Below are positions 1-24,806 of a DNA stretch of 25,056 nucleotides, in pieces. Both the position numbers and the translations under genes were made by a program. Each line of letters begins with the position of its first letter. Positions within the stretch are counted from its first letter, which is position 1. The DNA comes from Leptolyngbyaceae cyanobacterium. Its GTDB lineage: Bacteria; Cyanobacteriota; Cyanobacteriia; Phormidesmidales; Phormidesmidaceae. The notes beneath the pieces are model-generated. The model was not told where the DNA came from. It worked only from the letters and a program-made list of their open reading frames with translations, and did no database searches. The stretch is from the NCBI GenBank assembly GCA_965263355.1, contig CBDHHL010000030.1:1-25056 (forward strand), written 5' to 3'.

Positions 1-162
1 CTTTATATGATCCGGTGTGGCCATTATCGCATGGGTATTGAAGCGATTGACCGACGTGCTCCTGGCACAACAAAGGCTAACTGGTTTCTCAATATTGAAG
101 CTTGTAAGAAGAGAGATTTAGTTGCCCCGCATAAACGACGACCTGGCAAAGCAGCCTCCTAA
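1..162 (+). CDS. 3' end of excisionase/recombination-directionality-factor-like small DNA-binding protein (partial; not in ORF track)
   Basis: Frame 1 reads LYMIRCGHYRMGIEAIDRRAPGTTKANWFLNIEACKKRD...* (TAA 160-162) and aligns by eye with LYKVRSGHYRAGKEIIDRRSPQSSRPDWYADIEKCQARD of 3870..4208. It is convergent with the integrase at 159..1280 and overlaps its stop codon. Confidence 0.75.
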   Translation, partial: LYMIRCGHYRMGIEAIDRRAPGTTKANWFLNIEACKKRDLVAPHKRRPGKAAS

Positions 163-1280
163 GAATTGTTTTTCAATGCTTCAAGATATGCCTGGGCAGC
201 TCTTACACTACTAATGTGTTTTTGATAGGTTTCAAGATTTAACGTCGCTGAATGTCCAGCCATCTGTGCTGCTACAGCAGTGGGTAATCCCAGATCTAGC
301 GCTGCTCGGATGTTCCAGGCATGGCGAAGATCATAGGGTTTGAATGGCATTTTATATCGACTGAATTGTGTTGATGTGCGATCGCCATAAATTTTGTTGA
401 TCGGAGCAGTAATGTTGGGTTTCGTAATGTTAGCTAACTTCCAACGATCAACCCAGATACGGGGTAACGGAAACACTTCACGATTGCCAGTTTTTGTTGC
501 GTCCGGCACTAGAGCAATAGGCCATGACTCTCCATCGAATGTTTTGTAGACAATCTCACATAAAAACGCCTCGTGATCGCGTAAACCATAGGTAGCCATT
601 ACTCCGGCAATCCATTGCCACCCGCGATTTTTAATCGTGTCAATAGCGGTGACGATTTGTTCATCTGTTGGAATGGTACGCGTAACTTTCTTGGGGTTAT
701 AACTGCCCTGCTTTGATTTGAGATCGCACTCAATTCCGGCAAACTTTGCCAACCGCTGTAGCTTCTGACAAGCAATCTGCAAGCTCCGACTATTGGGCTT
801 CCATCTAGATGTGGTCTGTTCCAGTAGAGCTGCTGTCAGTTTGCGCTCAGACGTCAGCCACTTGAATGCTGGATACCAGAATTCTTCCTTCCACTTGAGA
901 TTAATGGCATCCTGGTCACCATTTTGAGATTTTAACCAGTCTTTGCGAAATCGTTCTATCCAGTAGCCACAGGTTTCTTTACTACGATCTACTTCCTCTT
1001 CCTGAGCTACCATTTCCCACTCAAATCGCTTTTGAGCGAGCAACCCACCAATGCGCTTGGCCTCAGATTCAGCGAACTTTAACCCGGTCGGATTGGCATA
1101 CACATCTAGACTCAGATATTGCTGATACGGCTTTTGGCGGTTGCTACCAGGTTTAGGCGGCAGCACCGCTCGTAAACTCAGTTTTTCCTGGCGGGTTCCT
1201 CGGGCATAAACACGAACCCCAATGTTAGCTGCCTTCAACCGCTCATTAATCGCTTCAATCGTCAGTACTTTTGAGGGCAT
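159..1280 (-). CDS. Tyrosine recombinase/integrase, XisA/XisC-like family, apparently intact
   Basis: Catalytic motifs MATYGLRDHE (R), KTG (K), YDLRHAW (HxxR position, here YxxR), AGHS (H), ETY (Tyr). The N-terminal LSLRAVLPPKPG...ANPTGLKFAESEA...LLAQKRFEW resembles the XisA/XisC N-terminus. Confidence 0.92.
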   Translation of the reverse strand: MPSKVLTIEAINERLKAANIGVRVYARGTRQEKLSLRAVLPPKPGSNRQKPYQQYLSLDVYANPTGLKFAESEAKRIGGLLAQKRFEWEMVAQEEEVDRSKETCGYWIERFRKDWLKSQNGDQDAINLKWKEEFWYPAFKWLTSERKLTAALLEQTTSRWKPNSRSLQIACQKLQRLAKFAGIECDLKSKQGSYNPKKVTRTIPTDEQIVTAIDTIKNRGWQWIAGVMATYGLRDHEAFLCEIVYKTFDGESWPIALVPDATKTGNREVFPLPRIWVDRWKLANITKPNITAPINKIYGDRTSTQFSRYKMPFKPYDLRHAWNIRAALDLGLPTAVAAQMAGHSATLNLETYQKHISSVRAAQAYLEALKNNS

Positions 1281-1618: not shown

Positions 1619-2748
1619 ATGGGGCGTAGAACACTTACCGTAGAAGCAATCAATGCCAGGTTGGATGCCGCTCAACTGGGGCTAAAGATCTATCAGCGTG
1701 GCGATAAGTTATCCATTCGCGGTACGTTGCCGCCCAAACCCAGTAGCAAGCGGATAAAACCCCATCAGCAGCTAATTAGTCTGGGAGTGTATGCCAACCC
1801 AGCCGGTCTGGAATATGCCGAGTCAGAAGCCTTTCGCCTGGGCGGTTTGCTGGCCCAAAAGCGGTTTAGCTGGGAGGAATTTAGTTTAGAAACCCCAGAT
1901 CAGGCTAAAGATACTGATCTAATTTGTCGGGTTTGGATCGAGCGATTTCGGCTGGAATGGTTGAAGCATCAGGATTCTGATGATGCAGCCACTGATCTAA
2001 AATGGCGCGAGCAGTTTTGGTACCCCGCCTTTAAGTGGCTATCCCCTGATGCGGCCCTGACACCCCATTTATTAGAAAGTGTGGTGCAACGGTGGAAGCC
2101 CAATAGCCGCAGTCGCCAGATTGCCTGCCAAAAATTGCAGCGACTGGCGGACTTTGCCAATATCAAGTCAGATATTAAGGCCCAGCAGGGGGACTACAGC
2201 CTTAGCAATGTAGAGCGCATCATCCCGGAAGATGCCGACATTATTGCCGCCATTGATCAGATGAAAAATAAGTCCTGGCAGTGGGTGGCTGGGATGATGG
2301 CCACCTATAACTTGAGGGACCATGAAGCTTTTCTCTGTGAGGTGGAGTGGCGAGACTATGACGCTGAAAATATGACGATGAAAAATGGCTGGTGGCCCTG
2401 GTGCCTGATGCCACTAAGACAGGCAGACGGGAAACGTTTCCATTGCCTCCTGAATGGGTTGAGCGCTGGCAATTGGGGGATATGCGTCGGCCCAAAGTAA
2501 CGGCCCGAATGAATAAGGACTATGGCGATCGCACCTCCAACGCATTTCAGCGAGCCAAAATGCCGTTTCCTCCCTACAGTTTGCGCCATGCCTGGAATAT
2601 TCGTGCGGCTCTGTGGTTGGAACTGCCCACTGCAGTGGCTTCTCAGGTTATGGGCCACAATCCTAATGTGAACCTGGGCACTTATCAAAAGCACATTTCC
2701 AAAGCGCGGGCAGCTCATATCAAGTCGTTGAGAAGGCCCACACTATGA
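1619..2748 (+). pseudogene. XisA/XisC-like tyrosine integrase paralog, frameshifted by a 14-bp duplication
   Basis: ORFs 1619..2500 and 2392..2748 together align along integrase 1. Removing one copy of TATGACG(C/A)TGAAAA (2357-2370/2371-2384) restores CEVEWRDYDDEKWLVALVPDATKTG. Confidence 0.88.
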
Positions 2749-5193: not shown

Positions 5194-5526
5194 TCAATCC
5201 TTTGAGCCATTAATTTTTCGGCCTAGATTTCCCTTCTCATAGGAGTCTTCGGCATTTACGTTAGGCCTGCATATCGTAGTCAGCTTCCATCGCTCCACCC
5301 ATTCTGGGTAAAAGGCTTGATAAACGAGACGAGGACCCGTTTTTCCCTTAAGGACTTGTAAGCCTTCATTTGTAAATTCGCAGAAGAAACCCTCATGGGG
5401 ACGAATACCATAGGTAGCCATCATTCCATAAACCCACTGCCAGTTTTGATTAGGAATTTGTTCTCTCCACTCAGCAATTAATTCGTTAGTGGTAGAACTT
5501 CCTCTTCGACGGTTGGACAATAACAA
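5194..5526 (-). pseudogene. Internal fragment of a third XisA-like tyrosine integrase
   Basis: WQWVYGMMATYGIRPHE...KGKTGPR...PEWVERWKL matches the catalytic core of integrases 1 and 2. N- and C-termini are missing. Confidence 0.82.
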
Positions 5527-5599
5527 GTGATCCTTTTTCTCTGGAAGTGGGCGGGCGTGACCTCTTTGTCGACTTTGGGGCCGAAAAATTACTCATTGC

Positions 5600-6405
5600 T
5601 CAACGTAAAAACCAGAAAATTGCTGTAGAAGTCAAATTGGTAGCCCCCCGCGCACTGTCTCGTTTATAACTCTCCCCAATCCAAATTTGGGAAATATCGT
5701 CTGCAATTACCCCCCAGCGCAAACCAAGGGCTTCCCCCGTACGACAGCCCGTACCAAAGAGAAAACGAATCAAAGGCGTATAGTACCGATAGGCCCTGGA
5801 CTCATCCATGGTGCTGATAATGGCTCGGATTTCATCCAGGGTAAAGGGTTGGGGTGACTCAATAGGCGGCACCTTAAATGCCGAAATCATTGTCTTCCAT
5901 GGATTTTCCTTAAGCAGCCCTGCTGCAATGCCCCATTCCCAGGCAGCATTGATCACTGAGAAATATTCTGCTGCACTAATGGGAGAAATCTGAGTCAGCA
6001 GATAATCCCGAAATAATATGGTCGTGCGCTCAGTATAGTCAGCGGCCAGTTTGGTGTTGGCAAATTTGGCTAGCTTTTTCTCAACGTGCTGATACTTTTC
6101 CAGAGTTTAGCGGCCACCAGTTTGGATTTGGCAAACTCTTCCAGCAATGACTGACCAGTCAGCTCACGGGATGCCTTTGCCGTATCGCTCTTATATTTCA
6201 TCAGACTGGGGTCAAAGTGCCCGGTGGCCATATCCATCTCGATTTGCCGGGCTTTCATCTCTGCGGCGGCCCGTCCAATGGACTCGTCAACTAACCCCAA
6301 ACTAAATTGGTACCGTTTCCCCTGCCACGACCAGCGCAAGGATAAACGCCCGTTGCGCTCCAGAATGACCACGGTACCTGCTTTTGCTTTAGACCGGACT
6401 GCCAT
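5600..6405 (-). pseudogene. Frameshifted, C-terminally truncated phage-type tyrosine integrase with N-terminal arm-binding (DUF3596-like) domain
   Basis: N-terminal GRLSLRWSWQGKRYQFSLGL...AEMKARQIEMDMATGHFDPSLMKY and catalytic FLFGTGCRTGEALGLRW lie in different frames. No HxxR or Tyr box follows. Directly downstream of tRNA-Val(GAC). Confidence 0.85.
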
Positions 6406-6536: not shown

Positions 6537-6610
6537 TGGACGTACGCCGACTCGAACGGCGGACCTCATCGATGTCAACGATGCGCTCTAACCAACTGAG
6601 CTATACGTCC
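6537..6610 (-). tRNA. trnV: tRNA-Val(GAC)
   Basis: Reverse complement GGACGTATAGCTCAGTTGGTTAGAGCGCATCGTTGACATCGATGAGGTCCGCCGTTCGAGTCGGCGTACGTCCA folds to a full cloverleaf with anticodon GAC. Confidence 0.97.
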
Positions 6611-14703: not shown

Positions 14704-17097
14704 CTAATCTTTATCACTTGCGGCGATGTATCCCCAGCTATAGGCCGTTGGTCCAATGGACTGGTGCACTGTAAATTCAGTTACCGGCACATAGTAGTAG
14801 GAATCAAAATAGGCCTCGGCTGTAGGCCATTCCCAAGGGCTAGGACTCATTTCCTTGGCAAACTTTTTAATCGCTGCTTCCCACTTACCCGCATGACCAT
14901 TGGGGTTTTGCACATCCATGGGGCCATAGACGGTAATTCCAGGTGGGGGTTCTTGCCCAGATGCACGCATATCTGCCATTAAGGGCATTTGAGGATTTCG
15001 GTACCCTAAACCGATGGTGTACATCATATTGCTAGGGTTGGCACCCGCAGCAAATTGAGTGGCTAAAATGCCTGCCCGTAAATAAGCTTCGTCCCCAGTC
15101 AGGGTATGGGCATGGAACAGGGCGCGAGTTTTGGGAGTAGTCATAGAGCCCCAACCAATGGCACTTTTAGGATCTGCATTCCACTTAAAGCCAGTGCTCT
15201 CGATAGTTTCAATGTCACGTTTGGCAGCTTTGACAATAGCGTTGATCCCGTTTTGCTGAACTGTCTGATCGACTGACCGTTGGGTGCGCGCATAGACAAA
15301 TGCACTATGGCTTTGGTCATAGTAGCTGTGGGGTGATACGGATGCATTCGCATCCTTAAACGCTGTTGTATTTAGAAAGAGTTGATGCCATTTATCATTA
15401 CCGGTTAGCCGATATAGCTCCGCAGCCGCCAAATTTCGCTGCGAATCAACAATTTGGTGTTGTTTGTCTGTGGTTTTAGCCAGCTCGGCCTCGGCCCAGT
15501 CCATGGCTCGAATTGCACTTTCTTGATAGGTTTGGGCTAAGGCTTTGTCGTAATTCTCTAATACATAGGCAGCGCGAGCAGCTACATTGGCGTAGAAAAA
15601 GCTAGACCAAATGCCTGGACCATAGGCCATAACTGTGAGAGATTCTTGCCAGCTGCCTTGGGGCTTAATGGGATGCTCTGCAGATTCAATTCCCCCTGGA
15701 ATGCCCCCGTCTTTGGTTTGTAGACGGCGGAATACATCCAGACCCCATAGGGCTTCATCCAGAATATCGGGTAAGTTATTACTGGATTCCGGTAGATTTA
15801 GCTTGATAGCATCGAAATACTCTGGATGGAGTTCTACTAATTCTAAAAACGACCGACTCACATGCAGGTGAGAAATACGACGATCCCAATCCCCGGCATC
15901 CATCCATCCACCCCAGGCATTGGAAAGTTCCTCATCAGTACGAGTATTGACCAGAGCTTCAAAGGCATTCAGCCCATCCCGATAGTTAAACCCCATACGG
16001 GTATCCATCAATGGCACCGTGGACTGATAGATCACCATGCCGTCTTCAGGGTGAAATGGACGGAGCCGTTGGTAATCGGTGTAGGGCTGCTCTAGGGCAA
16101 TGCCACTGCGCTGATGGTACATGCCTCGGGCTGACACATAGAAGCCATCACGCCAGGTATTTTCGCCAATTTCAAATTCGTAGGATGTGCCTACGCCATC
16201 GACATAAATACGATACTGACCGGGAACCGAAAATTCACTAAAGTCCATCATGAAGACATCGGTTTGATGATGGTTTCTATCCTGTCGATCCCTATAGTCT
16301 TTTGACTGCGATAGGATAGTCTTACCTGCGTAGACTTTTTCATCCGTTGCTGCATCCATTAGCCAGAAAGGTTTGCCGGTTTCATAATCCAGGCCACCCC
16401 CATTGCCCATCCAGGTGGACAAAAAGGCAACTTTGGCTGGATCATCAGGATCAAAACCCAGGTGGGAGATTTGTACAGCCTCACTGCGAGTTTGTTCAGG
16501 CTTATAAACAAACGTCATGTCGTTTAGGCCCTTTTTGCCAAAGCTAATTCGATAGGTTTCGCCAATAGTTAGCTTTTCGGGCAGTTCTAGGTATAGGGTA
16601 TGCACCATGGGCCATTCGAACTGCCAGGGACCGGTTTCAGCCATGGAACTGATATTGCTTTTACGGTAGATATTAATGGGAGTAATCTTAGTGCCATTGC
16701 TGGTCGTAATTTTGTAATGGCTGAGGACATCCACACAGTCGGTATTGAGTTTTGGTCCCACATATTGATCGGCTAACCAGATCATGTTGGGGGTATCTGG
16801 AACCAACTGGCCAAAAAATTTGCCCTGGCGCGATATCCAACCGTCTTTCTTAACCACATCCCCAGGTTCTGCTTCGTAAACGACTTGCTTACCACGGACC
16901 AGTTCACCCGTTTCTATCCGTAGCGCCAACATATTTTCACTTACGGTGTAAATATGGGTGCTCAAGAGGTTGGAGGAATCGACCTCTTGAGCAGAGGCGA
17001 GGTTAACAACGGCAGCCGGTTGAAAGCTAGAAAGTCTAGCATTGCATTGGCCAGCGTTAGTCCAACCAAGTAGAAAAGAGAGAAGATTTTCTAGCAT
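14704..17097 (-). CDS. Glycoside hydrolase family 9 with N-terminal Ig-like domain
   Basis: Ig-like region (QISHLGFDPDDPAKVA...DFSEFSVPGQY), YHQRSG, GGWMDAGDWD catalytic Asp motif and C-terminal EFTVHQ catalytic Glu. Confidence 0.9.
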   Translation of the reverse strand: MLENLLSFLLGWTNAGQCNARLSSFQPAAVVNLASAQEVDSSNLLSTHIYTVSENMLALRIETGELVRGKQVVYEAEPGDVVKKDGWISRQGKFFGQLVPDTPNMIWLADQYVGPKLNTDCVDVLSHYKITTSNGTKITPINIYRKSNISSMAETGPWQFEWPMVHTLYLELPEKLTIGETYRISFGKKGLNDMTFVYKPEQTRSEAVQISHLGFDPDDPAKVAFLSTWMGNGGGLDYETGKPFWLMDAATDEKVYAGKTILSQSKDYRDRQDRNHHQTDVFMMDFSEFSVPGQYRIYVDGVGTSYEFEIGENTWRDGFYVSARGMYHQRSGIALEQPYTDYQRLRPFHPEDGMVIYQSTVPLMDTRMGFNYRDGLNAFEALVNTRTDEELSNAWGGWMDAGDWDRRISHLHVSRSFLELVELHPEYFDAIKLNLPESSNNLPDILDEALWGLDVFRRLQTKDGGIPGGIESAEHPIKPQGSWQESLTVMAYGPGIWSSFFYANVAARAAYVLENYDKALAQTYQESAIRAMDWAEAELAKTTDKQHQIVDSQRNLAAAELYRLTGNDKWHQLFLNTTAFKDANASVSPHSYYDQSHSAFVYARTQRSVDQTVQQNGINAIVKAAKRDIETIESTGFKWNADPKSAIGWGSMTTPKTRALFHAHTLTGDEAYLRAGILATQFAAGANPSNMMYTIGLGYRNPQMPLMADMRASGQEPPPGITVYGPMDVQNPNGHAGKWEAAIKKFAKEMSPSPWEWPTAEAYFDSYYYVPVTEFTVHQSIGPTAYSWGYIAASDKD

Positions 17098-17765: not shown

Positions 17766-20158
17766 TCAGATGTTTAATGCAGCCTCTACCCTATTAATCC
17801 AACTCTGTAATGCCTGAGTATTGGGATGATTTGAACCTAACGTTGTTTGGTAGATCGGCAATGCCTGCAACAGTAATGACTGAGCCGCCTCATATTGGCC
17901 CTGCTGATATCGTAATACCCCAAGGTTAAAGAGGCTAGTGGCCACAGAGGGATGCTCGTCGCCCAACACGCGTTTTCTCATCGCCAGGGCCTCTTGGTAA
18001 GAGCGGTTCAGCCTCTGAGTAGCGCCCTTGATTGTCGTAGAGCCCTGCCAGATTGTTGAGGCTAGTGGCCACATCGGGATGCTCGTCGCCCAACACGCGT
18101 TTGCTCATCGCCAGGGCCTCTTGGTAGAGCGGTTCAGCCTCTGAGTAGCGCCCTTGATTGTCGTAGAGCCCTGCCAGATTGTTGAGGCTAGTGGCCACAT
18201 AGGGATGCTCGTCGCCCAACACGCGTTTGCTCATCGCCAGGGCCTCTTGGTAGAGCGGTTCAGCCTCTGAGTAGCGCCCTTGATTGTTGTAGAGCCCTGC
18301 CAGATTGTTGAGGCTAGTGGCCACATCGGGATGCTCGTCGCCCAACACGCGTTTGCTCATCGCCAGGGCCTCTTGGTAGAGCGGTTCAGCCTCTGAGTAG
18401 CGCCCTTGATTTTCGTAGAGCAAGGCCAGATTGTTGAGGCTTTGTGGCCACATCGGGATGCTCGTCGCCCAACACGCGTTTTCTCATCGCCAGGGCCTCT
18501 TGGTAGAGCGGTTCAGCCTCTGAGTAGCGCCCTTGATTGTCGTAGAGCAAGGCCAGATTGTTGAGGCTAGTGGCCACATAGGGATGCTCGTCGCCCAACC
18601 CGCGTTTTCTCATCGCCAGGGCCTCTTGGTAGAGCGGTTCAGCCTCTGAGTAGCGCCCTTGATTGTAGTAGAGCCCTGCCAGATTGTTGAGGCTAGTGGC
18701 CACAGAGGGATGCTCGTCGCCCAACACGCGTTTTCTCATCGCCAGGGCCTCTTGGTAGAGCGGTTCAGCCTCTGAGTAGCGCCCTTGATTGTCGTAGAGC
18801 AAGGCCAGATTGTTGAGGCTACTGGCCACATCGGGATGCTCGTCGCCCAACCGCTCACGCGCCATGGTTAGACAAAATTTACGCCAAGTCTCAGCTTGAG
18901 CATAGAGCCCTTGACCTTCATAAAAGCGACCGAGACCAATGTAGGGCCAGACCAAATTGTCATCGCTTAGGTGAGCGTTCCACTGATGAATCACTTCAGC
19001 CATATGGGGAGTCAGGTCACTCCAGGCTAACCACTGAGACTGTGTCGGTGTCTCATCCAGCTCTTGAGCCGCTGCCACCATGGTTTGACAGTAGGTCGCT
19101 ATCAACGATGATGATTCCGACACCTTAGTCCGAATAAACCGTTGAATCAACTGATGGTATTGATAGCGCTTTTCCTCTACTCGGCGTATTACACTCAAGC
19201 GTAGTAATTCATCATCCCGTTGTTCCTCCAGGTCTTCGGCATCCACGTCTGGGAAACACGCCTCAACACGGTCCCAGGAAATCGGAGCGAGTGCAAAACA
19301 GCTCAACAAACAGGCCAATGTCTGAGCCTCGTCGCTGAGGGCTTGCCAGCTTAATTCAAAGGCACTGGCTACCCCTAAGGGATTCGTCATCCCCGATTCT
19401 GCGTTGACTAACGCACGGGCTGCAAACGCTTGAGCCTTTAGCCGTCGTTGCATCTCTACCAGGGAGAGATCCGGTTTTCGCGCCAGATACCGCCCGACTA
19501 ACTCCAAAGCTAAGGGTAAATATCCCAGCCAGTTACACAGAGCCTTTGCCTGCCCCAACTCCGCTTCAATGCGGGTTGCCCCCACCAATTGTTTAAGCAA
19601 GTCCAGCGCAGCAGGTTCTTCAAGGACCTCAATATTGACTGAGGTCACGTTAGTCGCTAGATGCTGTCGTCGGGTGGTGAGCAGTAGGGTAAACCGTTTA
19701 TTGGTCGGTAAATAGGGGGCAATGGCTTCATAGTGTGTGACATCATCCACCACGATGAGTACTGAAGCGGGTGACTCTACCTCAGAAAACTGGGGCCATT
19801 GATTCCAGCAATAGGCAATTCTGGCGTTTAATGGCAGCTCGTCAGACGGATTTAGGTCTAAGTACCCAGCCGCAAACGCCAGTATCTGAGGGGCAATGTC
19901 CTGGTCCCGCGATTCCAGCCAGCACACCCCACCGGGATAATCAGAGTCTTCATAGGCTCTCACATACTGCAGGGCCAGCTCTGTTTTGCCGATGCCGCCC
20001 ATGCCCACCACAGCCGTAATCGCTACCTGGTGAGACTGCTGTAGTTGGTTATGCAGCCGCTGTAAATCAGACTCCCGACCCACAAAGTGTCGGGTGCCCT
20101 TTAGAGGCGTGTTATTAGGGGGCGTTAGCTTTGTCCGTGCCCGCTCAGACGACTCTAG
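17766..20158 (-). CDS. NB-ARC + TPR (NLR-like STAND) protein, copy B; two apparent frameshifts in the repeat array; true start unresolved
   Basis: FVGRE, Walker A GMGGIGKT, Walker B LIVVDDV, GYLPLAL, YHQL, then 42-aa TPRs. The frame is open from 20158. ORFs 18386..20083, 17935..18453 and 17766..18074 are pieces of one gene. Confidence 0.88.
17935..18860 (-). repeat. Near-identical 126-bp TPR tandem array (8 GDEHP motifs)
   Basis: GGGATGCTCGTCGCCCAAC at 17949, 18076, 18202, 18328, 18455, 18581, 18707, 18833. Confidence 0.95.
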
Positions 20159-20272
20159 CTAATAGCTGATATTAACGGTATTATCCTGACCCAGGATGAC
20201 AGGAGCTGTCGGATTATTGACCTGATTACTTTCACCGCCGAACACGTTTTGTTCGTTCTGAGGATTGCTCAT
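20159..20272 (-). CDS. 37-aa N/Q/G-rich putative amyloid-signalling peptide, in frame with downstream NB-ARC (not in ORF track)
   Basis: MSNPQNEQNVFGGESNQVNNPTAPVILGQDNTVNISY*(TAG 20161-20159) matches the C-terminus of 24317..24742 (QNVFGGEANQVNNPTGPVITGGSNNTYNITT). Confidence 0.75.
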   Translation of the reverse strand: MSNPQNEQNVFGGESNQVNNPTAPVILGQDNTVNISY

Positions 20273-20288
20273 GGGTCAGGAACATAGG

Positions 20289-20335
20289 AAGAACATCTGT
20301 CCCTGTTATGGCTTATCGAGCCCGGATTTAGCAAG
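20289..20335 (-). promoter_or_regulatory. Putative promoter shared by both NLR loci
   Basis: Minus strand TTGCTA-18 bp-CATAAC-AGGG..AGATGTTCTT, conserved at 24761-24806. Confidence 0.55.
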
Positions 20336-20415
20336 ATAGGTTGATAAACTGGTTGATTCGGGAGGATGGCAACTTCGTTAAGGCTGCTGGCAACCTATTC
20401 TTAGTGTGGATTGAT

Positions 20416-20664
20416 ATGAGTATTGTGATTTCAGATGAAATAATCAGAGCGTCTGAGCTAAGTCAGGCGGAATTTTTGCAGGAAATTGCCCTCCATCTAT
20501 TTCAATCAGGGCGGTTAACCCTGGGCTATGCGGCCCAAATGGCTGAGATGGAGAGATTTGCGTTTCAGGCGTTTCTCAAATCTCGACAAGTACCACTTTA
20601 TGTTTATGACGTAGAAGATTTTGAGGTAGATCTGAAAAACTTACGCGAGCTAAACCGCCTGTGA
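20416..20664 (+). CDS. UPF0175 family antitoxin-like protein
   Basis: MSIVISDEII...EIALHLFQSGRLTLGYAAQMA...F...L...VP. ATG 20416 preferred. Confidence 0.85.
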   Translation: MSIVISDEIIRASELSQAEFLQEIALHLFQSGRLTLGYAAQMAEMERFAFQAFLKSRQVPLYVYDVEDFEVDLKNLRELNRL

Positions 20665-20690
20665 TCATTATCAGTGACACGTCAGTCATT
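20661..20690 (+). pseudogene. First ~10 codons of a DUF3368/PIN-type toxin; remainder missing
   Basis: GTGA overlap with the UPF0175 stop reads MIIISDTSVI, the typical DUF3368 N-terminus. Similarity then ends and the frame stops soon after. Confidence 0.6.
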
Positions 20691-20932
20691 TTCGTCTTCA
20701 GTCGTTATTATGGGCTACCTGCAATTCGCCCTTGGCAATGACTTTGATACGTTTTGCAACGTTGGGATAGTCCCCCAGGTTTGACCTAATTCCAGCGTCA
20801 GCATCTCTAGCTGGCTTTTTCTCATTCAGTCACAGACAAGCGCGTTTGCAACCTATACTGAATTTGAATATCCTCGAAACGATTGCCCGTGTAGTTCTCA
20901 GTTAAAATTCCGGCTTAGGAATACTGCTTAAA

Positions 20933-21493
20933 ATGACCGTCCAAATTCTGCGAAAAAAATTCACGATAGGACAGTATCACCAGATGATTGAGTCTGGCAT
21001 TTTAACTGACCGGGATCATGTGGAACTCATTCAGGGAGAAATTATTGAAATGTCGCCCGTTGGCAGACACCATGCCGCCTGTGTAGACCGCCTCAATGAG
21101 CTATTAGTCTTAAAATTATTCCGAAAAGCATTGATTCGAGTGCAAAGTCCAATTCTCCTCAGTGACGACTCTGAACCACAGCCGGATGTCTCCATCCTGC
21201 AACGACGAGAAGATTTTTATCATGCAGGGCACCCCACTCCTGCCGATATTTTTGCCCTGGTGGAAGTATCCGATAGCACTATTGACTTTGATCGAGACGT
21301 GAAAGTCCCTATATACGCTCAGGAACAGATTCCTGAGGTTTGGCTGGTTAACTTAAACGATACCCATATTGAGCGCTATCGCCAGCCCATTGCTAACACT
21401 TATCAACAACGGCAGATTTTTAATCTGGGAGAAACGCTTAACTTTCAAGCATTTCGTGATGTTCCTATAGAGGTAATTCAAGTCTTTGGATAG
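20933..21493 (+). CDS. Uma2 family (DUF820) endonuclease-fold protein
   Basis: VELIQGEIIEMSP, SEPQPDV, LVEVSDST, KVPIYA..IPEVWLVNL. Confidence 0.93.
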   Translation: MTVQILRKKFTIGQYHQMIESGILTDRDHVELIQGEIIEMSPVGRHHAACVDRLNELLVLKLFRKALIRVQSPILLSDDSEPQPDVSILQRREDFYHAGHPTPADIFALVEVSDSTIDFDRDVKVPIYAQEQIPEVWLVNLNDTHIERYRQPIANTYQQRQIFNLGETLNFQAFRDVPIEVIQVFG

Positions 21494-21670
21494 AGCAAAT
21501 GAGTTATCTCAAGATGGGTACATGGGTAGATGGGTTCTGTTTATCTCTCACCTATTCACTATAAATTGTTTACGCACGCTATGGTGAAAACATAAGCTTG
21601 GATGTTGCGTTTCAACTAGCCCTAGCCTCATGTCTGTTATTTTTTTATGCCAAAACATACTTGAATTCGC

Positions 21671-24316
21671 TCAGGTGTTTAATGCAGCCTCTACCCCATC
21701 AATCCAACTCTGTAATGCCTGAGTATTGGGATGATTTGAACCTAACGTTGTTTGGTAGATCGGCAATGCCTGCAACAGTAATGACTGAGCCGCCTTGATA
21801 TTGGCCCTGCTGATATCGTAATACCTCCAAGGTTAAAGAGGCTAGTGGCCACATCGGGATGCTCGTCGCCCAACACGCGTTTTCTCATCGCCAGGGCCTC
21901 TTGGTAGAGCGGTTCAGCCTCTGAGTAGCGCCCTTGATTGTCGTAGAGCAAGGCCAGATTGTTGAGGCTAGTGGCCACATCGGGATGCTCGTCGCCCAAC
22001 ACGCGTTTGCTCATCGCCAGGGCCTCTTGTAAGAGCGGTTCAGCCTCTGAGTAGCGCCCTTGATTGTCGTAGAGCCCTGCCAGATTGTTGAGGCTAGTGG
22101 CCACTAGGGATGCTCGTCGCCCAACACGCGTTTGCTCATCGCCAGGGGTAAGAGCGGTTCAGCCTCTGAGTAGCGCCCCGTAGAGCCCTGCCAGATTGTT
22201 GAGGCTATTGGTAGGGATGCTCGTCGCCCAACACGCGTTTTCTCATCGCCAGGGCCTCTTGTAAGAGCGGTTCAGCCTCTGAGTAGCGCCCTTGATTGTC
22301 GTAGAGCCCTGCCAGATTGTTGAGGCTAGTGGCCACAGAGGGATGCTCGTCGCCCAACACGCGTTTGCTCATCGCCAGGGCCTCTTGGTAGAGCGGTTCA
22401 GCCTCTGAGTAGCGCCCTTGATTGTCGTAGAGCCCTGCCAGATTGTTGAGGCTTTGGGCCACATCGGGATGCTCGTCGCCCAACACGCGTTTTCTCATCG
22501 CCAGGGCCTCTTGGTAGAGCGGTTCAGCCTCTGAGTAGCGCCCTTGATTTGAGGCTAGTGGTAGAGCCCTGCCAGATTGTTGAGGCTAGTGGCCACTACT
22601 GGCCACATAGGGATGCTCGTCGCCCAACACGCGTTTTCTCATCGCCAGGGCCTCTTGGTAGAGCGGTTCAGCCTCTGAGTAGCGCCCTTGATTGTCGTAG
22701 AGCCTGCCAGATTGTTGAGGCTAGTGGCCACATCGGGATGCTCGTCGCCCAACACGCGTTTTCTCATCGCCAGGGCCTCTTGTAAGAGCGGTTCAGCCTC
22801 TGAGTAGCGCCCTTGATTGTCGTAGAGCCCTGCCAGATTGTTGAGGCTAGTGGCCACATAGGGATGCTCGTCGCCCAACACGCGTTTTCTCATCGCCAGG
22901 GCCTCTTGGTAGAGCGGTTCAGCCTCTGAGTAGCGCCCTTGATTGTCGTAGAGAGCCCTGCCAGATTGTTGAGGCTACTGGCCACAGATAGGGATGCTCC
23001 TCGCCCAACCGCTCACACGCCATGGTTAGACAAGTGTCGTACCAAGTCTCAGCTTGAGCATAGAGCCCTTGACCTTCATAAAAGCGACCGAGACCAATGT
23101 AGGGCCAGACCAAATTGTCATCGCTTAGGTGAGCGTTCCACTGATGAATCACTTCAGCCATATGGGGAGTCAGGTCACTCCAAGCTAACCACTGAGACTG
23201 TGTCGGTGTCTCATCCAGCTCTTGAGCCGCTGCCACCATGGTTTGACAGTAGGTCGCTATCAACGGTGATGATTCCGACACCTTAGTCCGAATAAACCGT
23301 TGAATCAACTGATGGTATTGATAGCGCTTTTCCTCTACTCGGCGTATTACACTCAAGCGTAGTAATTCATCATCCCGTTGTTCCTCCAGGTCTTCGGCAT
23401 CCACGTCTGGGAAACACGCCTCAACACGGTCCCAGGAAATCGGAGCGAGTGCAAAACAGCTCAACAAACAGGCCAACGCCTGAGCCTCGTCGCTGAGGGC
23501 TTGCCAGCTTAATTCAAAGGCACTGGCTACCCCTAAGGTATTCGTCATCCCCGATTCTGCGTTGACTAATGCACGGGCTGCAAACGCTTGAGCCTTTAGC
23601 CGTCGTTGCATCTCTACCAGGGAGAGATCCGGTTTTCGCGCCAGATACCGCCCGACTAACTCCAAAGCTAAGGGTAAATATCCCAGCCAGTCACACAGAG
23701 CCTTTGCCTGCCCCAACTCCGCTTCAATGCGGGTTGCCCCCACCAATTGTTTAAGCAAGTCCAGCGCAGCAGGTTCTTCAAGGACCTCAATATTGACTGA
23801 GGTCACGTTAGTCGCTAGATGCTGTCGCCGGGTGGTGAGCAGTAGGGTAAACCGTTTGTTGGTCGGTAAATAGGGGGCAATGGCTTCATAGTGTGTGACA
23901 TCATCCACCACGATGAGTACTGAAGCGGGTGACCCTACCTCAGAAAACTGGGGCCATTGATTCCAGCAATAAGCAATTCTGGCGTTTAATGGCAGCTCGT
24001 CAGACGGATTTAGGTCTAAGTACCCAGCCGCAAACGCCAGTATCTGAGGGGCAATGTCCTGGTCCCGCGATTCCAGCCAGCAGACCCCACCGGGATAATC
24101 AGAGTCTCCATAGGCTCTCACATACTGCAGGGCCAGCTCTGTCTTACCGATGCCGCCCATGCCCACCACAGCCGTAATCGCTACCTGGTGAGACTGCTGT
24201 AGTTGATTATGTAACCGCTGTAAATCAGACTCCCGACCCACAAAGTGCTGGGTGCCTTTTCGCGGTGTATTATTGGGGGGCGTTAGCTTTGTCTGTGCCC
24301 GCTCAGACGACTCCAG
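21671..24316 (-). CDS. NB-ARC + TPR (NLR-like STAND) protein, copy A; repeat array with several indels; true start unresolved
   Basis: Near-identical to copy B. Stop TGA at 21673-21671 (…QSWIDGVEAALNT*). Frame open from 24316. ORF-track pieces 22919..24241, 22639..22893, 22205..22498, 21742..22104. Confidence 0.85.
21840..23010 (-). repeat. 126-bp TPR tandem array (10 G(D/E)EHP motifs, two units garbled)
   Basis: Motif at ~21856, 21982, 22107, 22213, 22340, 22466, 22610, 22735, 22861, 22991. Irregular spacing at 22107-22213 and 22466-22610. Confidence 0.9.
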
Positions 24317-24742
24317 TCAAGTCGTAATGTTGTATGTATTATTGCTACCACCCGTGATCACAGGGCCGGTCGGATTATTCACCTGGTTGGCTTCACCACC
24401 GAACACATTCTGTACATTCTGGCCTTGCACCTGGCCAATACTAATCACCTGCTGAATCTCTTGTGCTAAAGATTTCACCTGTTGGGCAAACTCGTCATCC
24501 TCAGCCATCGCTACGCCTAGGTAATTCGTGACCGTTTCCTTATCGGTCTCATCTCCCTTATCAGCCCGAGCCAGGGCCGCTTTCGCTTTTCCCTGAAACT
24601 TAGAACTGATCAGCTCTGTTAATGCGCTTAATTTTTGACCCAACTGTTTACGGGCATCGTCCGTTAAGGATTTGGTAAGTGTGCCAACCGCCGTTGTAAA
24701 AATTAGCGTTGCGATTGAGGCCGCTGTAATTGGGTCTGTCAT
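24317..24742 (-). CDS. BELL-like helical effector with C-terminal amyloid-like (BASS-type) motif
   Basis: Hydrophobic N-terminal helix MTDPITAASIATLIF, helical core ending AMAEDDEFAQQVKSLAQEI, then N/Q/G-rich tail. Adjacent to an NB-ARC-TPR gene, as known for BELL/BASS proteins. Confidence 0.75.
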   Translation of the reverse strand: MTDPITAASIATLIFTTAVGTLTKSLTDDARKQLGQKLSALTELISSKFQGKAKAALARADKGDETDKETVTNYLGVAMAEDDEFAQQVKSLAQEIQQVISIGQVQGQNVQNVFGGEANQVNNPTGPVITGGSNNTYNITT

Positions 24743-24760: not shown

Positions 24761-24806
24761 AAGAACATCTCCCCTGTTATGGCTTATTCACCCCAGAGTT
24801 AGCAAG
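24761..24806 (-). promoter_or_regulatory. Putative promoter of copy A
   Basis: TTGCTA (24805-24800)-18 bp-CATAAC (24781-24776), same as upstream of copy B. Confidence 0.55.

What the first reader, a model, noticed from the sequence alone, without database searches (positions are those of the whole stretch)
20083..24319. Conserved in-frame stop codon between amyloid motif and NLR in both paralogs: candidate programmed readthrough
Seen: copy A reads ...NNTYNITT-TGA(24319-24317)-LESSERAQTKLTPPNNTPRKGTQHFVGRE and copy B reads ...DNTVNISY-TAG(20161-20159)-LESSERARTKLTPPNNTPLKGTRHFVGRE. The stop is at the same position, 25 codons before the V of FVGRE, but is a different codon. The 25-codon linker differs between copies by 6 synonymous and 3 non-synonymous codons with no indels. 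It carries the PNNxP...FVGRE lead-in typical of NB-ARC domains and has no ATG/GTG/TTG start. Both stops are followed by CTR-GAG, and a CUAG-like 3' context is known to favour readthrough in eukaryotes and viruses. Inference: readthrough would give abundant short effector/peptide plus a small amount of full-length amyloid-tagged receptor from one gene, a ratio suited to nucleated amyloid signalling. Two independent nonsense mutations or sequencing errors at one homologous codon are unlikely. I do not know of this arrangement being described.
Basis: partly seen in the sequence, partly recalled or inferred. Interest (0 to 1): 0.93.

Follow-up and report, generated by a model that had tools for sequence, protein, structure and literature searches.

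The report
Stop-codon readthrough pseudoknot in cyanobacterial NLRs
Many cyanobacterial immune-receptor genes carry a conserved stop codon followed by a small knotted RNA structure, placed as in mouse leukaemia virus, which probably lets one gene make plenty of a short cell-death protein and a little of the full sensor fused to it; this is inferred from sequences and still needs a bench test.

Summary
Both stops are real, and the arrangement is a widespread family trait. Searches that left the stop out of the query gave 108 distinct elements: 101 follow TGA, 7 TAG, none TAA or a sense codon. All nine pairs form in 26 of 32 loci picked by protein homology alone; 0.3 are expected with synonymous codons resampled. 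Leaky stop, 8-base spacer and pseudoknot is the layout of the gammaretroviral readthrough signal. The cassette joins Bell-like/amyloid-tail proteins (also TIR, hydrolase) in frame to several sensor classes that mostly lack a start codon. It replaces the receptor's own copy of the amyloid motif found in ordinary two-gene pairs. Related loci use a textbook -1 frameshift cassette at the same junction, and two database proteins have Trp at the stop position. Best reading (about 0.8): programmed readthrough gives abundant effector plus scarce effector-sensor fusion. No RNA, ribosome or protein data were available, so readthrough itself is not shown. Ten literature searches and Rfam found no description.

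The parts
24761..24806 (-). Upstream block shared by both copies (candidate promoter/leader; function not tested)
   Evidence: the sigma-70 scan did not call it
24317..24742 (-). Copy A upstream ORF, 141 aa: Bell-like helical domain (residues about 7-107) plus N/Q/G-rich amyloid-like tail
   Evidence: no significant Pfam hit and no NCBIfam or PADLOC hit
24317..24319 (-). Copy A in-frame TGA, preceded by a pyrimidine and followed by CTG
24309..24316 (-). Copy A 8-nt spacer
24278..24308 (-). Copy A H-type pseudoknot: S1 24308-24304 with 24295-24291; S2 24300-24297 with 24281-24278; A-rich 9-nt loop between them
21671..24316 (-). Copy A linker, NB-ARC and TPR repeats; the frame is open for 465 codons to 22919, then the TPR region is frameshifted in this assembly
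20289..20335 (-). Copy B version of the shared upstream block
20159..20272 (-). Copy B upstream ORF, 37 aa: amyloid-like motif alone, homologous to copy A's tail
20159..20161 (-). Copy B in-frame TAG followed by CTA
20120..20158 (-). Copy B 8-nt spacer (20158-20151) and pseudoknot (20150-20120)
17766..20158 (-). Copy B linker, NB-ARC and TPR repeats; the frame is open for 590 codons to 18386, frameshifted further on

Best explanation
The junction is a portable cis-acting recoding cassette: pyrimidine, UGA (or UAG), CUR, 8-nt spacer in all, then a 31-nt H-type pseudoknot. SHOWN from sequence: conservation of the stop, spacing, base pairs and frame. INFERRED: with the stop in the A site the pseudoknot sits at the mRNA entry channel and lets a near-cognate tRNA (probably Trp at UGA) compete with the release factor, so a minority of ribosomes go on into the sensor. 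One transcript then yields abundant short protein (Bell-like effector with amyloid-like tail) and scarce full-length effector-motif-STAND-repeat fusion. INFERRED from the known Bell/BASS and Bab/Agp logic: the activated fusion oligomerises, folds its motif into an amyloid seed and recruits the free effector pool, giving cell death or abortive infection. One copy of the motif serves both sides, so sensor and effector always match and can be swapped as modules. In the window, copy B would give a free motif peptide plus an ordinary motif-NLR able to seed copy A's effector.
For: (1) Blind tests with the stop left out of the query. Covariance model over 151 genomes: 16 of 16 hits directly after TGA. 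Pattern over metagenomes: 40 of 40 after TGA. Looser pattern over 401 genomes: 29 of the 30 fetched loci after TGA, the exception a context-free chance hit that I dropped. Pooled with the 19 seeds: 108 distinct elements, 101 TGA, 7 TAG, 0 TAA, 0 sense; ordinary two-gene neighbours end in TAA in 17 of 28 and are in frame in 7 of 28. (2) Structure. 19 seeds: 96.5% of cells paired, 23 double changes, 0 of 500 shuffles as high, slid controls at most 52%. All nine pairs in 84 of 103 elements versus 1.1 expected with synonymous resampling. In the set defined by protein homology and stop only, 26 of 32 versus 0.28, and 0 of 77 no-stop NLRs at the same register, 5 of 77 at any of five registers. (3) Nucleotide-level constraint: G at third codon positions +9 (99%), +18 (97%), +24 (94%); +1 codon CTA/CTG in 94 of 108 although TTA/TTG are over half of downstream Leu codons; pyrimidine before the stop in 25 of 27 four-fold boxes versus 0.53 background. 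(4) Frame: Walker A in frame without a stop in 94 of the 96 loci where one was found within 200 codons, 12 had none by my pattern; 61 of 95 have no ATG/GTG/TTG before the hhGR motif. (5) Modular use: 10 downstream and 7 upstream clusters at 35% identity, with NACHT, other STAND, TIR and hydrolase partners; 19 label changes on a rough NB-ARC tree, at least 5 forced; near-identical sensors carry either the cassette or their own start plus motif (L132/L135, L157/L162). (6) Interchangeability with -1 frameshifting: A_AAA_AAG with a hairpin 3-5 nt behind joins upstream ORFs to the same NLR family in L016, L126, L141, L144, L147, L158, L283, and the L141 upstream protein is homologous to that of the TGA-cassette locus L154 (30% identity, E 4e-14). 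(7) Two database proteins have Trp at the stop position, one a full Bell-motif-NB-ARC fusion (P0161, P0153). (8) The geometry matches MoMLV: 8-nt spacer, S1 starting at G9 (PMC13517186 section 4.1.1).
Against: No direct evidence of translation: no ribosome or proteome data could be queried. Model- and pattern-based sets are biased towards the seeds, and many loci are related, so counts are not independent events. Single-sequence folding recovers S1 fully in 1 of 5 cases and z-scores are weak (the program cannot fold pseudoknots). One locus has GTG directly after the stop and is annotated as starting there (L058); four database proteins are called as starting at that position (P0042, P0152, P0156, P0158); 27 of 95 loci have GTG/TTG and 7 an ATG before the hhGR motif. 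Broken cases exist: a 1-nt loss in the loop in two Leptolyngbya boryana strains (L063, L276), a deletion in L107, truncated or shifted sensors in L020, L177, L195, L202, L204, L214, and frameshifted TPRs in both window copies. The genetic code used for P0161 is unknown, so its Trp could be a gene-caller artefact. Constitutive in-frame forms with linker remnants and no stop also occur (L015, L094, P0149, P0150, P0154, P0155, P0163).
Confidence: 0.8

Rival explanations
1. Termination-coupled re-initiation: the ribosome stops, then restarts at the codon after the stop or at a nearby weak start, so the sensor is made separately and without a motif.
For: GTG at +1 in L058; CTG at +1 in 40 of 108; four database proteins begin there; 34 of 95 loci have some ATG/GTG/TTG before hhGR.
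Against: The +1 codon is CTA in 54 and CCA/CCG/CAG/AAG in 6 of 108; a stem at +9 would overlap the initiation footprint (inference); a sensor without motif or effector could not signal in the BASS scheme; the parallel -1 frameshift loci point to fusion.
Confidence: 0.07
2. A-to-I editing of the mRNA turns UGA or UAG into a Trp codon, guided by the pseudoknot.
For: UGA and UAG, but not UAA, are one edit from UGG, which fits 0 TAA of 108; Trp stands at this position in P0161 and P0153.
Against: The same pattern follows from leaky-stop preference; the contexts lack the UACG motif of bacterial TadA targets (recalled, not from a call); the spacing matches a ribosome-contact position.
Confidence: 0.05
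3. In-frame ribosomal hop or bypass over the stop, giving a fusion shorter by a few residues.
For: It gives the same architecture; stop-hopping is known from synthetic E. coli constructs (PMC5009743 passages).
Against: Take-off and landing codons share their first two bases in only 5 of 108.
Confidence: 0.04
4. Selenocysteine, pyrrolysine or codon reassignment.
For: An in-frame UGA followed by a structure resembles the bacterial SECIS layout (PMC7026636 passages).
Against: Both TGA and TAG occur; selA in 0 of 5, tRNA-Sec over cut-off in 0 of 5 (the best hits are tRNA-Ser), pylS over cut-off in 0 of 5 carrier genomes, some possibly incomplete; TGA ends ordinary genes in these loci.
Confidence: 0.01
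5. Pseudogenes, assembly errors, or a DNA-level module-swapping site with no translation role.
For: Window TPR regions are frameshifted; several carrier loci are broken; modules do swap at this junction.
Against: The same stop position occurs in complete plasmid records of cultured strains (Acaryochloris marina pREB4, pREB5, pREB8; Nostoc C057 and UHCC 0870); covariation includes G.U pairs and a pseudoknot; long open frames follow in most loci.
Confidence: 0.03

Closest known systems
Bell/BASS-NLR gene pairs (Dyrka et al., 10.1101/2020.01.06.895854) and E. coli Bab/Agp (Ibarlosa et al., 10.1101/2024.11.07.622273)
   Same: Small helical effector with a C-terminal N/Q/G-rich motif next to an NB-ARC/NACHT-repeat gene in multicellular cyanobacteria; also TIR and hydrolase effectors. 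The tail of the A. marina pREB8 protein is identical to an entry in their BASS data.
   Different: There the motif is present twice, in two separately started genes. Here the sensor has no motif and mostly no start of its own, and is joined in frame across a conserved stop. Neither main text holds 'readthrough' or 'stop codon'.
All-in-one effector-NLR fusions
   Same: The readthrough product has that architecture; P0161 is a natural example.
   Different: A conserved stop makes the effector-only form the main product.
Gammaretroviral (MoMLV) gag-pol readthrough signal
   Same: Stop, 8-nt conserved spacer, H-type pseudoknot whose first pair starts at G9, coding for the start of the downstream protein; sister lineages use -1 frameshifting instead.
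   Different: Bacterial, chromosomal or plasmid, mostly UGA-C rather than UAG-G, 31 nt with 5+4 pairs rather than 50 nt; no sequence likeness was tested or claimed.
Bacterial stop redefinition: SECIS/Sec, Pyl, Qbeta coat UGA readthrough, B. subtilis sacB
   Same: An in-frame stop decoded in part as sense.
   Different: No Sec or Pyl machinery found; the passages read list no pseudoknot stimulator for the bacterial or phage cases.
Bacterial -1 frameshift cassettes of the dnaX/IS type (A_AAA_AAG plus hairpin)
   Same: Short product plus long fusion from one mRNA; such cassettes sit at the same junction in seven related loci.
   Different: The finding itself keeps the frame and crosses a stop.

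Membership tests
Bell/BASS-NLR two-gene pair | Short (120-140 aa) helical protein with hydrophobic N-terminal helix and acidic residue at position 2-3 | tested here: met
   141 aa, D at position 3, five helices over residues 7-107
Bell/BASS-NLR two-gene pair | Match to the authors' Bell profile or a HeLo/MLKL/CC-type fold | tested here: inconclusive
   The profile was not available; best fold matches Z 6.3 or less, the plant resistosome N-terminus at Z 6.1, rmsd 3.3, 75 aligned; Atlas lead PF20701 HetE-N on 14% of one cluster
Bell/BASS-NLR two-gene pair | C-terminal BASS motif | tested here: inconclusive
   Tails are N/Q/G-rich (0.34 versus 0.14; 92 of 104 at 0.25 or more); a carrier's tail is in the BASS data, but the window's own motif was not found in the stored, cut file
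Bell/BASS-NLR two-gene pair | Second copy of the motif at the N-terminus of a separately initiated NLR | tested here: not met
   No motif and no start between stop and FVGRE in either copy; no start before hhGR in 61 of 95 carriers
Bell/BASS-NLR two-gene pair | Amyloid fibril formation and cell-death activity | not testable with these tools
   needs bench work
NB-ARC/TPR (STAND) receptor | NB-ARC domain followed by TPR repeats | tested here: met
   PF00931 E 1e-16 in both copies, TPR_10/TPR_12; repeats frameshifted in this assembly
Gammaretrovirus-type readthrough signal (works-like) | In-frame stop followed by an 8-nt conserved spacer | tested here: met
Gammaretrovirus-type readthrough signal (works-like) | H-type pseudoknot with covarying stems | tested here: met
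   (comparative evidence only)
Gammaretrovirus-type readthrough signal (membership) | UAG-G context, 50-nt G-C-rich knot, retroviral gag-pro junction | tested here: not met
   UGA-C in most, 31 nt, cyanobacterial genes; no Rfam match near either element
Gammaretrovirus-type readthrough signal (works-like) | Measured readthrough that depends on both stems | not testable with these tools
   needs reporter assays
Sec/Pyl recoding | selA, tRNA-Sec or pylS in the genome | tested here: not met
   0 of 5 carrier genomes over cut-off for each, positive controls rang; the window's own genome is not held

The most novel reading that the evidence does not exclude
The cassette is a regulated switch, not a fixed-ratio leak: the pseudoknot or the termination step responds to infection or stress (release-factor or tRNA changes, a ligand, pH), so that recoding itself arms the receptor. 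It would be a bacterial family of retrovirus-like readthrough elements used as a licensing step in innate immunity, freely exchanged with -1 frameshift cassettes across unrelated effectors and sensors.
Probability: 0.2. Interest if true: 0.97.

Novelty: new variant of a known kind. Interest (0 to 1): 0.91.

Why it matters
Structure-stimulated stop readthrough is a textbook feature of eukaryotic viruses; in bacteria the reviews read list only Sec, Pyl and a few leaky cases. A compact, covarying, widely spread bacterial element would give a natural substrate for studying how an mRNA structure biases termination on the 70S ribosome, and a small part for setting protein ratios. For immunity, it adds a third architecture between two-gene amyloid pairs and all-in-one receptors. 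It may explain Bell genes whose neighbouring NLR has no matching motif, and it means that about a quarter of the sampled cyanobacterial NB-ARC-TPR loci (33 of 121) may be annotated with wrong starts. Cultured strains carry it (A. marina MBIC11017 has three such loci and one frameshift locus on plasmids), so it can be tested directly.

Tried and rejected
No genome is held for the window. Rfam: nothing near either element. PADLOC and NCBIfam name neither part usefully. Sequence and Foldseek searches of the PDB with the Bell-like protein found nothing significant; the wide fold search gave only generic helical bundles. Viral contigs: 0 matches with two patterns. Sequencing runs: no RNA holder listed, so editing could not be tested. 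Five non-cyanobacterial plasmid NLR loci (Thiodictyon, Herpetosiphon twice, Prosthecochloris, Haliscomenobacter) and one Streptomyces locus showed no such junction by eye; blastn of the element against plasmids gave only E 3-9 hits; genome searches could not leave the phylum, so the range outside cyanobacteria is untested. A pattern for suppressor tRNAs failed to hit even ordinary tRNAs and says nothing. Earlier findings of the scan: none. A hairpin enclosing the stop appears in some single folds but is not conserved across the alignment by eye and was rejected. The tree is a quick tree on 106 columns, 114 rows (L069, L102, L131, L145, L176, L177 and L184 left out), and only shows that the label is scattered. 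Literature searches that found no description of this arrangement: (listings), plus term searches inside papers. The library lacks most subscription papers, and the bioRxiv supplements of Dyrka 2020 (Table S2) and Ibarlosa 2024 were not seen and may bear on BASS class and prior notice. No complex prediction was run.
Full report
OBSERVATION. On the minus strand, copy A has a 141-codon ORF ending in TGA (24319-24317) and copy B a 37-codon ORF ending in TAG (20161-20159). [quoted passage not shown] The linkers differ by 6 synonymous and 3 non-synonymous codons, and the first 400 codons by 25 in all, so the copies are recent paralogs. Stop B is bridged without a listed change by contigs of two public runs of one study; no shown piece bridges stop A. 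Both TPR regions are frameshifted in this assembly. One run lacks two 2-base insertions of copy A, so these may be assembly faults, but paralogous repeats could also explain that. No genome is held for the window.

THE STOP IS A FAMILY TRAIT. Six of 22 relatives from the genome collection have the same layout. A search of 301 cyanobacterial genomes with the linker and first part of NB-ARC gave 129 matches in 60 genomes. I fetched 121 of them; seven further G003 matches and one at a contig end were left out. Of the 121, 33 have a TGA 24-32 codons before the hhGR motif behind an upstream ORF (by hand, in 24 genomes), 77 have their own start and N-terminal motif or domain, 6 have a frameshift-type junction, and 5 are other or unclear. 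Complete plasmid records of cultured strains show it too: A. marina MBIC11017 pREB4, pREB5 and pREB8, two other Acaryochloris strains, Nostoc C057 and UHCC 0870, that is 7 of the 11 regions first opened; an eighth (Leptolyngbya boryana) has the cassette out of frame by one base. A natural fusion protein used as query gave 32 matches: the 23 that reach from the Bell part across the junction each hold one TGA, and the 9 others cover only the sensor side.

THE ELEMENT. Behind the stop lie an 8-nt spacer, stem 1 (+9 to +13 with +22 to +26), and stem 2 (+17 to +20 in the loop with +36 to +39), with a 9-nt A-rich loop between. On 19 seeds, 96.5% of cells pair, 6 of 9 pairs show double changes, no shuffle of 500 reaches the covariation score, and slid partners pair at 52% or less. 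In 85 elements not identical to a seed, 68 form all nine pairs when loop lengths may vary, 50 in the fixed register. Keeping each protein sequence and resampling synonymous codons, 1.1 of 103 would form all nine, against 84 observed. Because those sets were found with a model or pattern, I repeated the test on the 32 loci defined by protein homology and stop alone: 26 observed, 0.28 expected; among 77 no-stop receptors 0 at the same register and 5 at any of five. Third codon positions are fixed where the structure needs them. Single-strand folding gives weak support only. Rfam has no match.

BLIND TESTS. A covariance model built without the stop gave 16 hits in 11 of 151 genomes, all 16 directly after TGA. 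A stop-free pattern gave 40 metagenome loci, all 40 after TGA. A looser one gave 34 matches in 25 of 401 genomes (5 for the reversed control); of the 30 fetched, 29 follow TGA and one is a context-free chance hit, which I dropped. Pooled with the seeds and de-duplicated: 108 elements, 101 TGA, 7 TAG, no TAA, no sense codon; CTA or CTG follows in 94 and a pyrimidine precedes in 102. In 28 ordinary neighbours of self-starting receptors the upstream stop is TAA in 17, the distance runs from -4 to 237 nt and 7 are in frame. The review PMC7026636 (passages) says readthrough is lowest at UAA, highest at UGA and favoured by C at +4 and by UGA-CUA.

WHAT IT JOINS. Upstream, 99 of 106 proteins fall in one Bell-like cluster; the rest include alpha/beta-hydrolases, TIR domains and a helical protein. 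Tails are N/Q/G-rich in 92 of 104, and one is identical to an entry in the BASS data of PMC8086366 (supplement passages). Two upstream proteins (L154, L020) have no such tail, so the cassette is not tied to amyloid signalling. The window's copy B is the only clear motif-only case. The model of copy A's protein is a helical bundle with a low-confidence tail, with no decisive fold match. Downstream there are 10 clusters: the main NB-ARC-TPR family (81 of 99), NACHT proteins, other STAND types and a few non-STAND ORFs. Walker A is in frame with no stop in 94 of 96 loci where it was found within 200 codons, and 61 of 95 have no usual start before the hhGR motif. The cassette is scattered over a rough NB-ARC tree, and near-identical sensors carry either the cassette or their own start and motif.

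A PARALLEL SOLUTION. Seven related loci have A_AAA_AAG in the upstream frame, a hairpin a few bases behind and the receptor in the -1 frame without a start (L016, L126, L141, L144, L147, L158, L283; L184 is a weaker eighth); 2 of 69 self-starting receptors have the heptamer in that phase. A_AAA_AAG is the dnaX shift site (PMC5009743 passages). The upstream protein of L141 is homologous to that of the TGA-cassette locus L154. One family thus reaches the same sensor type by frameshift or across a stop, as retroviruses do for gag-pol.

MECHANISM. The layout equals the MoMLV signal: stop, 8-nt spacer, H-type pseudoknot starting at G9 (PMC13517186, passages and section 4.1.1). I infer that the knot meets the mRNA entry channel while the stop is in the A site and favours a near-cognate tRNA over the release factor. 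Of 17 proteins matching a linker profile, two have Trp at the stop position, four are called as starting just after it, and several are stop-less forms with linker remnants; the code behind one Trp case is unknown. The products would be abundant effector and scarce fusion. By the Bell/BASS scheme (Dyrka 2020, sections 7 and 9 and passages) and the Bab/Agp result (Ibarlosa 2024, abstract and section 4), the activated fusion would seed the free effector through the shared motif. These last steps are inference.

RIVALS. Re-initiation is favoured by one GTG at +1 and some downstream GTG/TTG, but most +1 codons are CTA and a motif-less sensor could not signal. A-to-I editing fits the stop spectrum equally and could not be tested here. 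Hopping lacks matched codons (5 of 108). Sec and Pyl machinery was not found in five carriers. Decay explains some loci (L063/L276, L107, L177, L195, L202, L204, L214, L020) but not the pattern.

NOVELTY. Ten searches (listings only unless named) found no description. Term searches in the two BASS papers, the survey of prokaryotic in-frame stops (PMC7918605), a genome-language-model RNA scan (10.64898/2026.09.22.753630), PMC8195603, PMC13092985 and Kibby 2022 gave no mention. The library omits most subscription papers, and bioRxiv supplements were not seen. Both ingredients are known kinds; their union, and a pseudoknot readthrough signal in bacterial genes, appear new. Verdict: real feature, new variant of a known kind, readthrough about 0.8 likely, interest 0.91.

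Noticed in passing
L016, L126, L141, L144, L147, L158, L283 (A. marina pREB7), weaker L184: Candidate -1 frameshift cassettes (A_AAA_AAG plus hairpin) joining a helical protein, a CHAT or a TIR domain to NB-ARC-TPR receptors; no description turned up in one search. Worth a study of its own.
   Followed up: partly
L063:1981-2033 and L276 (two Leptolyngbya boryana strains): The cassette is intact except for one base missing in a G run of the loop, which puts the receptor out of frame in both strains: an inactivated allele or a slippage switch.
   Followed up: partly
L069, L145: Out-of-frame junctions between an upstream domain and NB-ARC with no clear slippery site or pseudoknot; unexplained.
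   Followed up: no
L205, L219, L249, L259: The cassette leads into ORFs with no Walker A and no Pfam hit, so it also feeds non-STAND partners.
   Followed up: partly
L015:4005-4045, L094: Self-starting motif-NLRs that keep a decayed remnant of the element and have lost the stop and first codons.
   Followed up: partly
window 20341-20664 and 20933-21493 (+): UPF0175 and Uma2-family genes lie between the two copies on the opposite strand.
   Followed up: no
window 159-1280 (-), 1619-2748 (+), 5194-6405 (-), 6537-6610 (-): Several integrase-like ORFs by eye, some split, beside a tRNA-Val gene: probably an island boundary. The two longest had no Pfam hit.
   Followed up: no
window 14704-17097 (-): GH9 cellulase-like gene with an Ig-like domain directly downstream of copy B.
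   Followed up: no
L241 (G003:C108): Cluster of six tRNA genes within 1.6 kb, part of a tRNA array.
   Followed up: no
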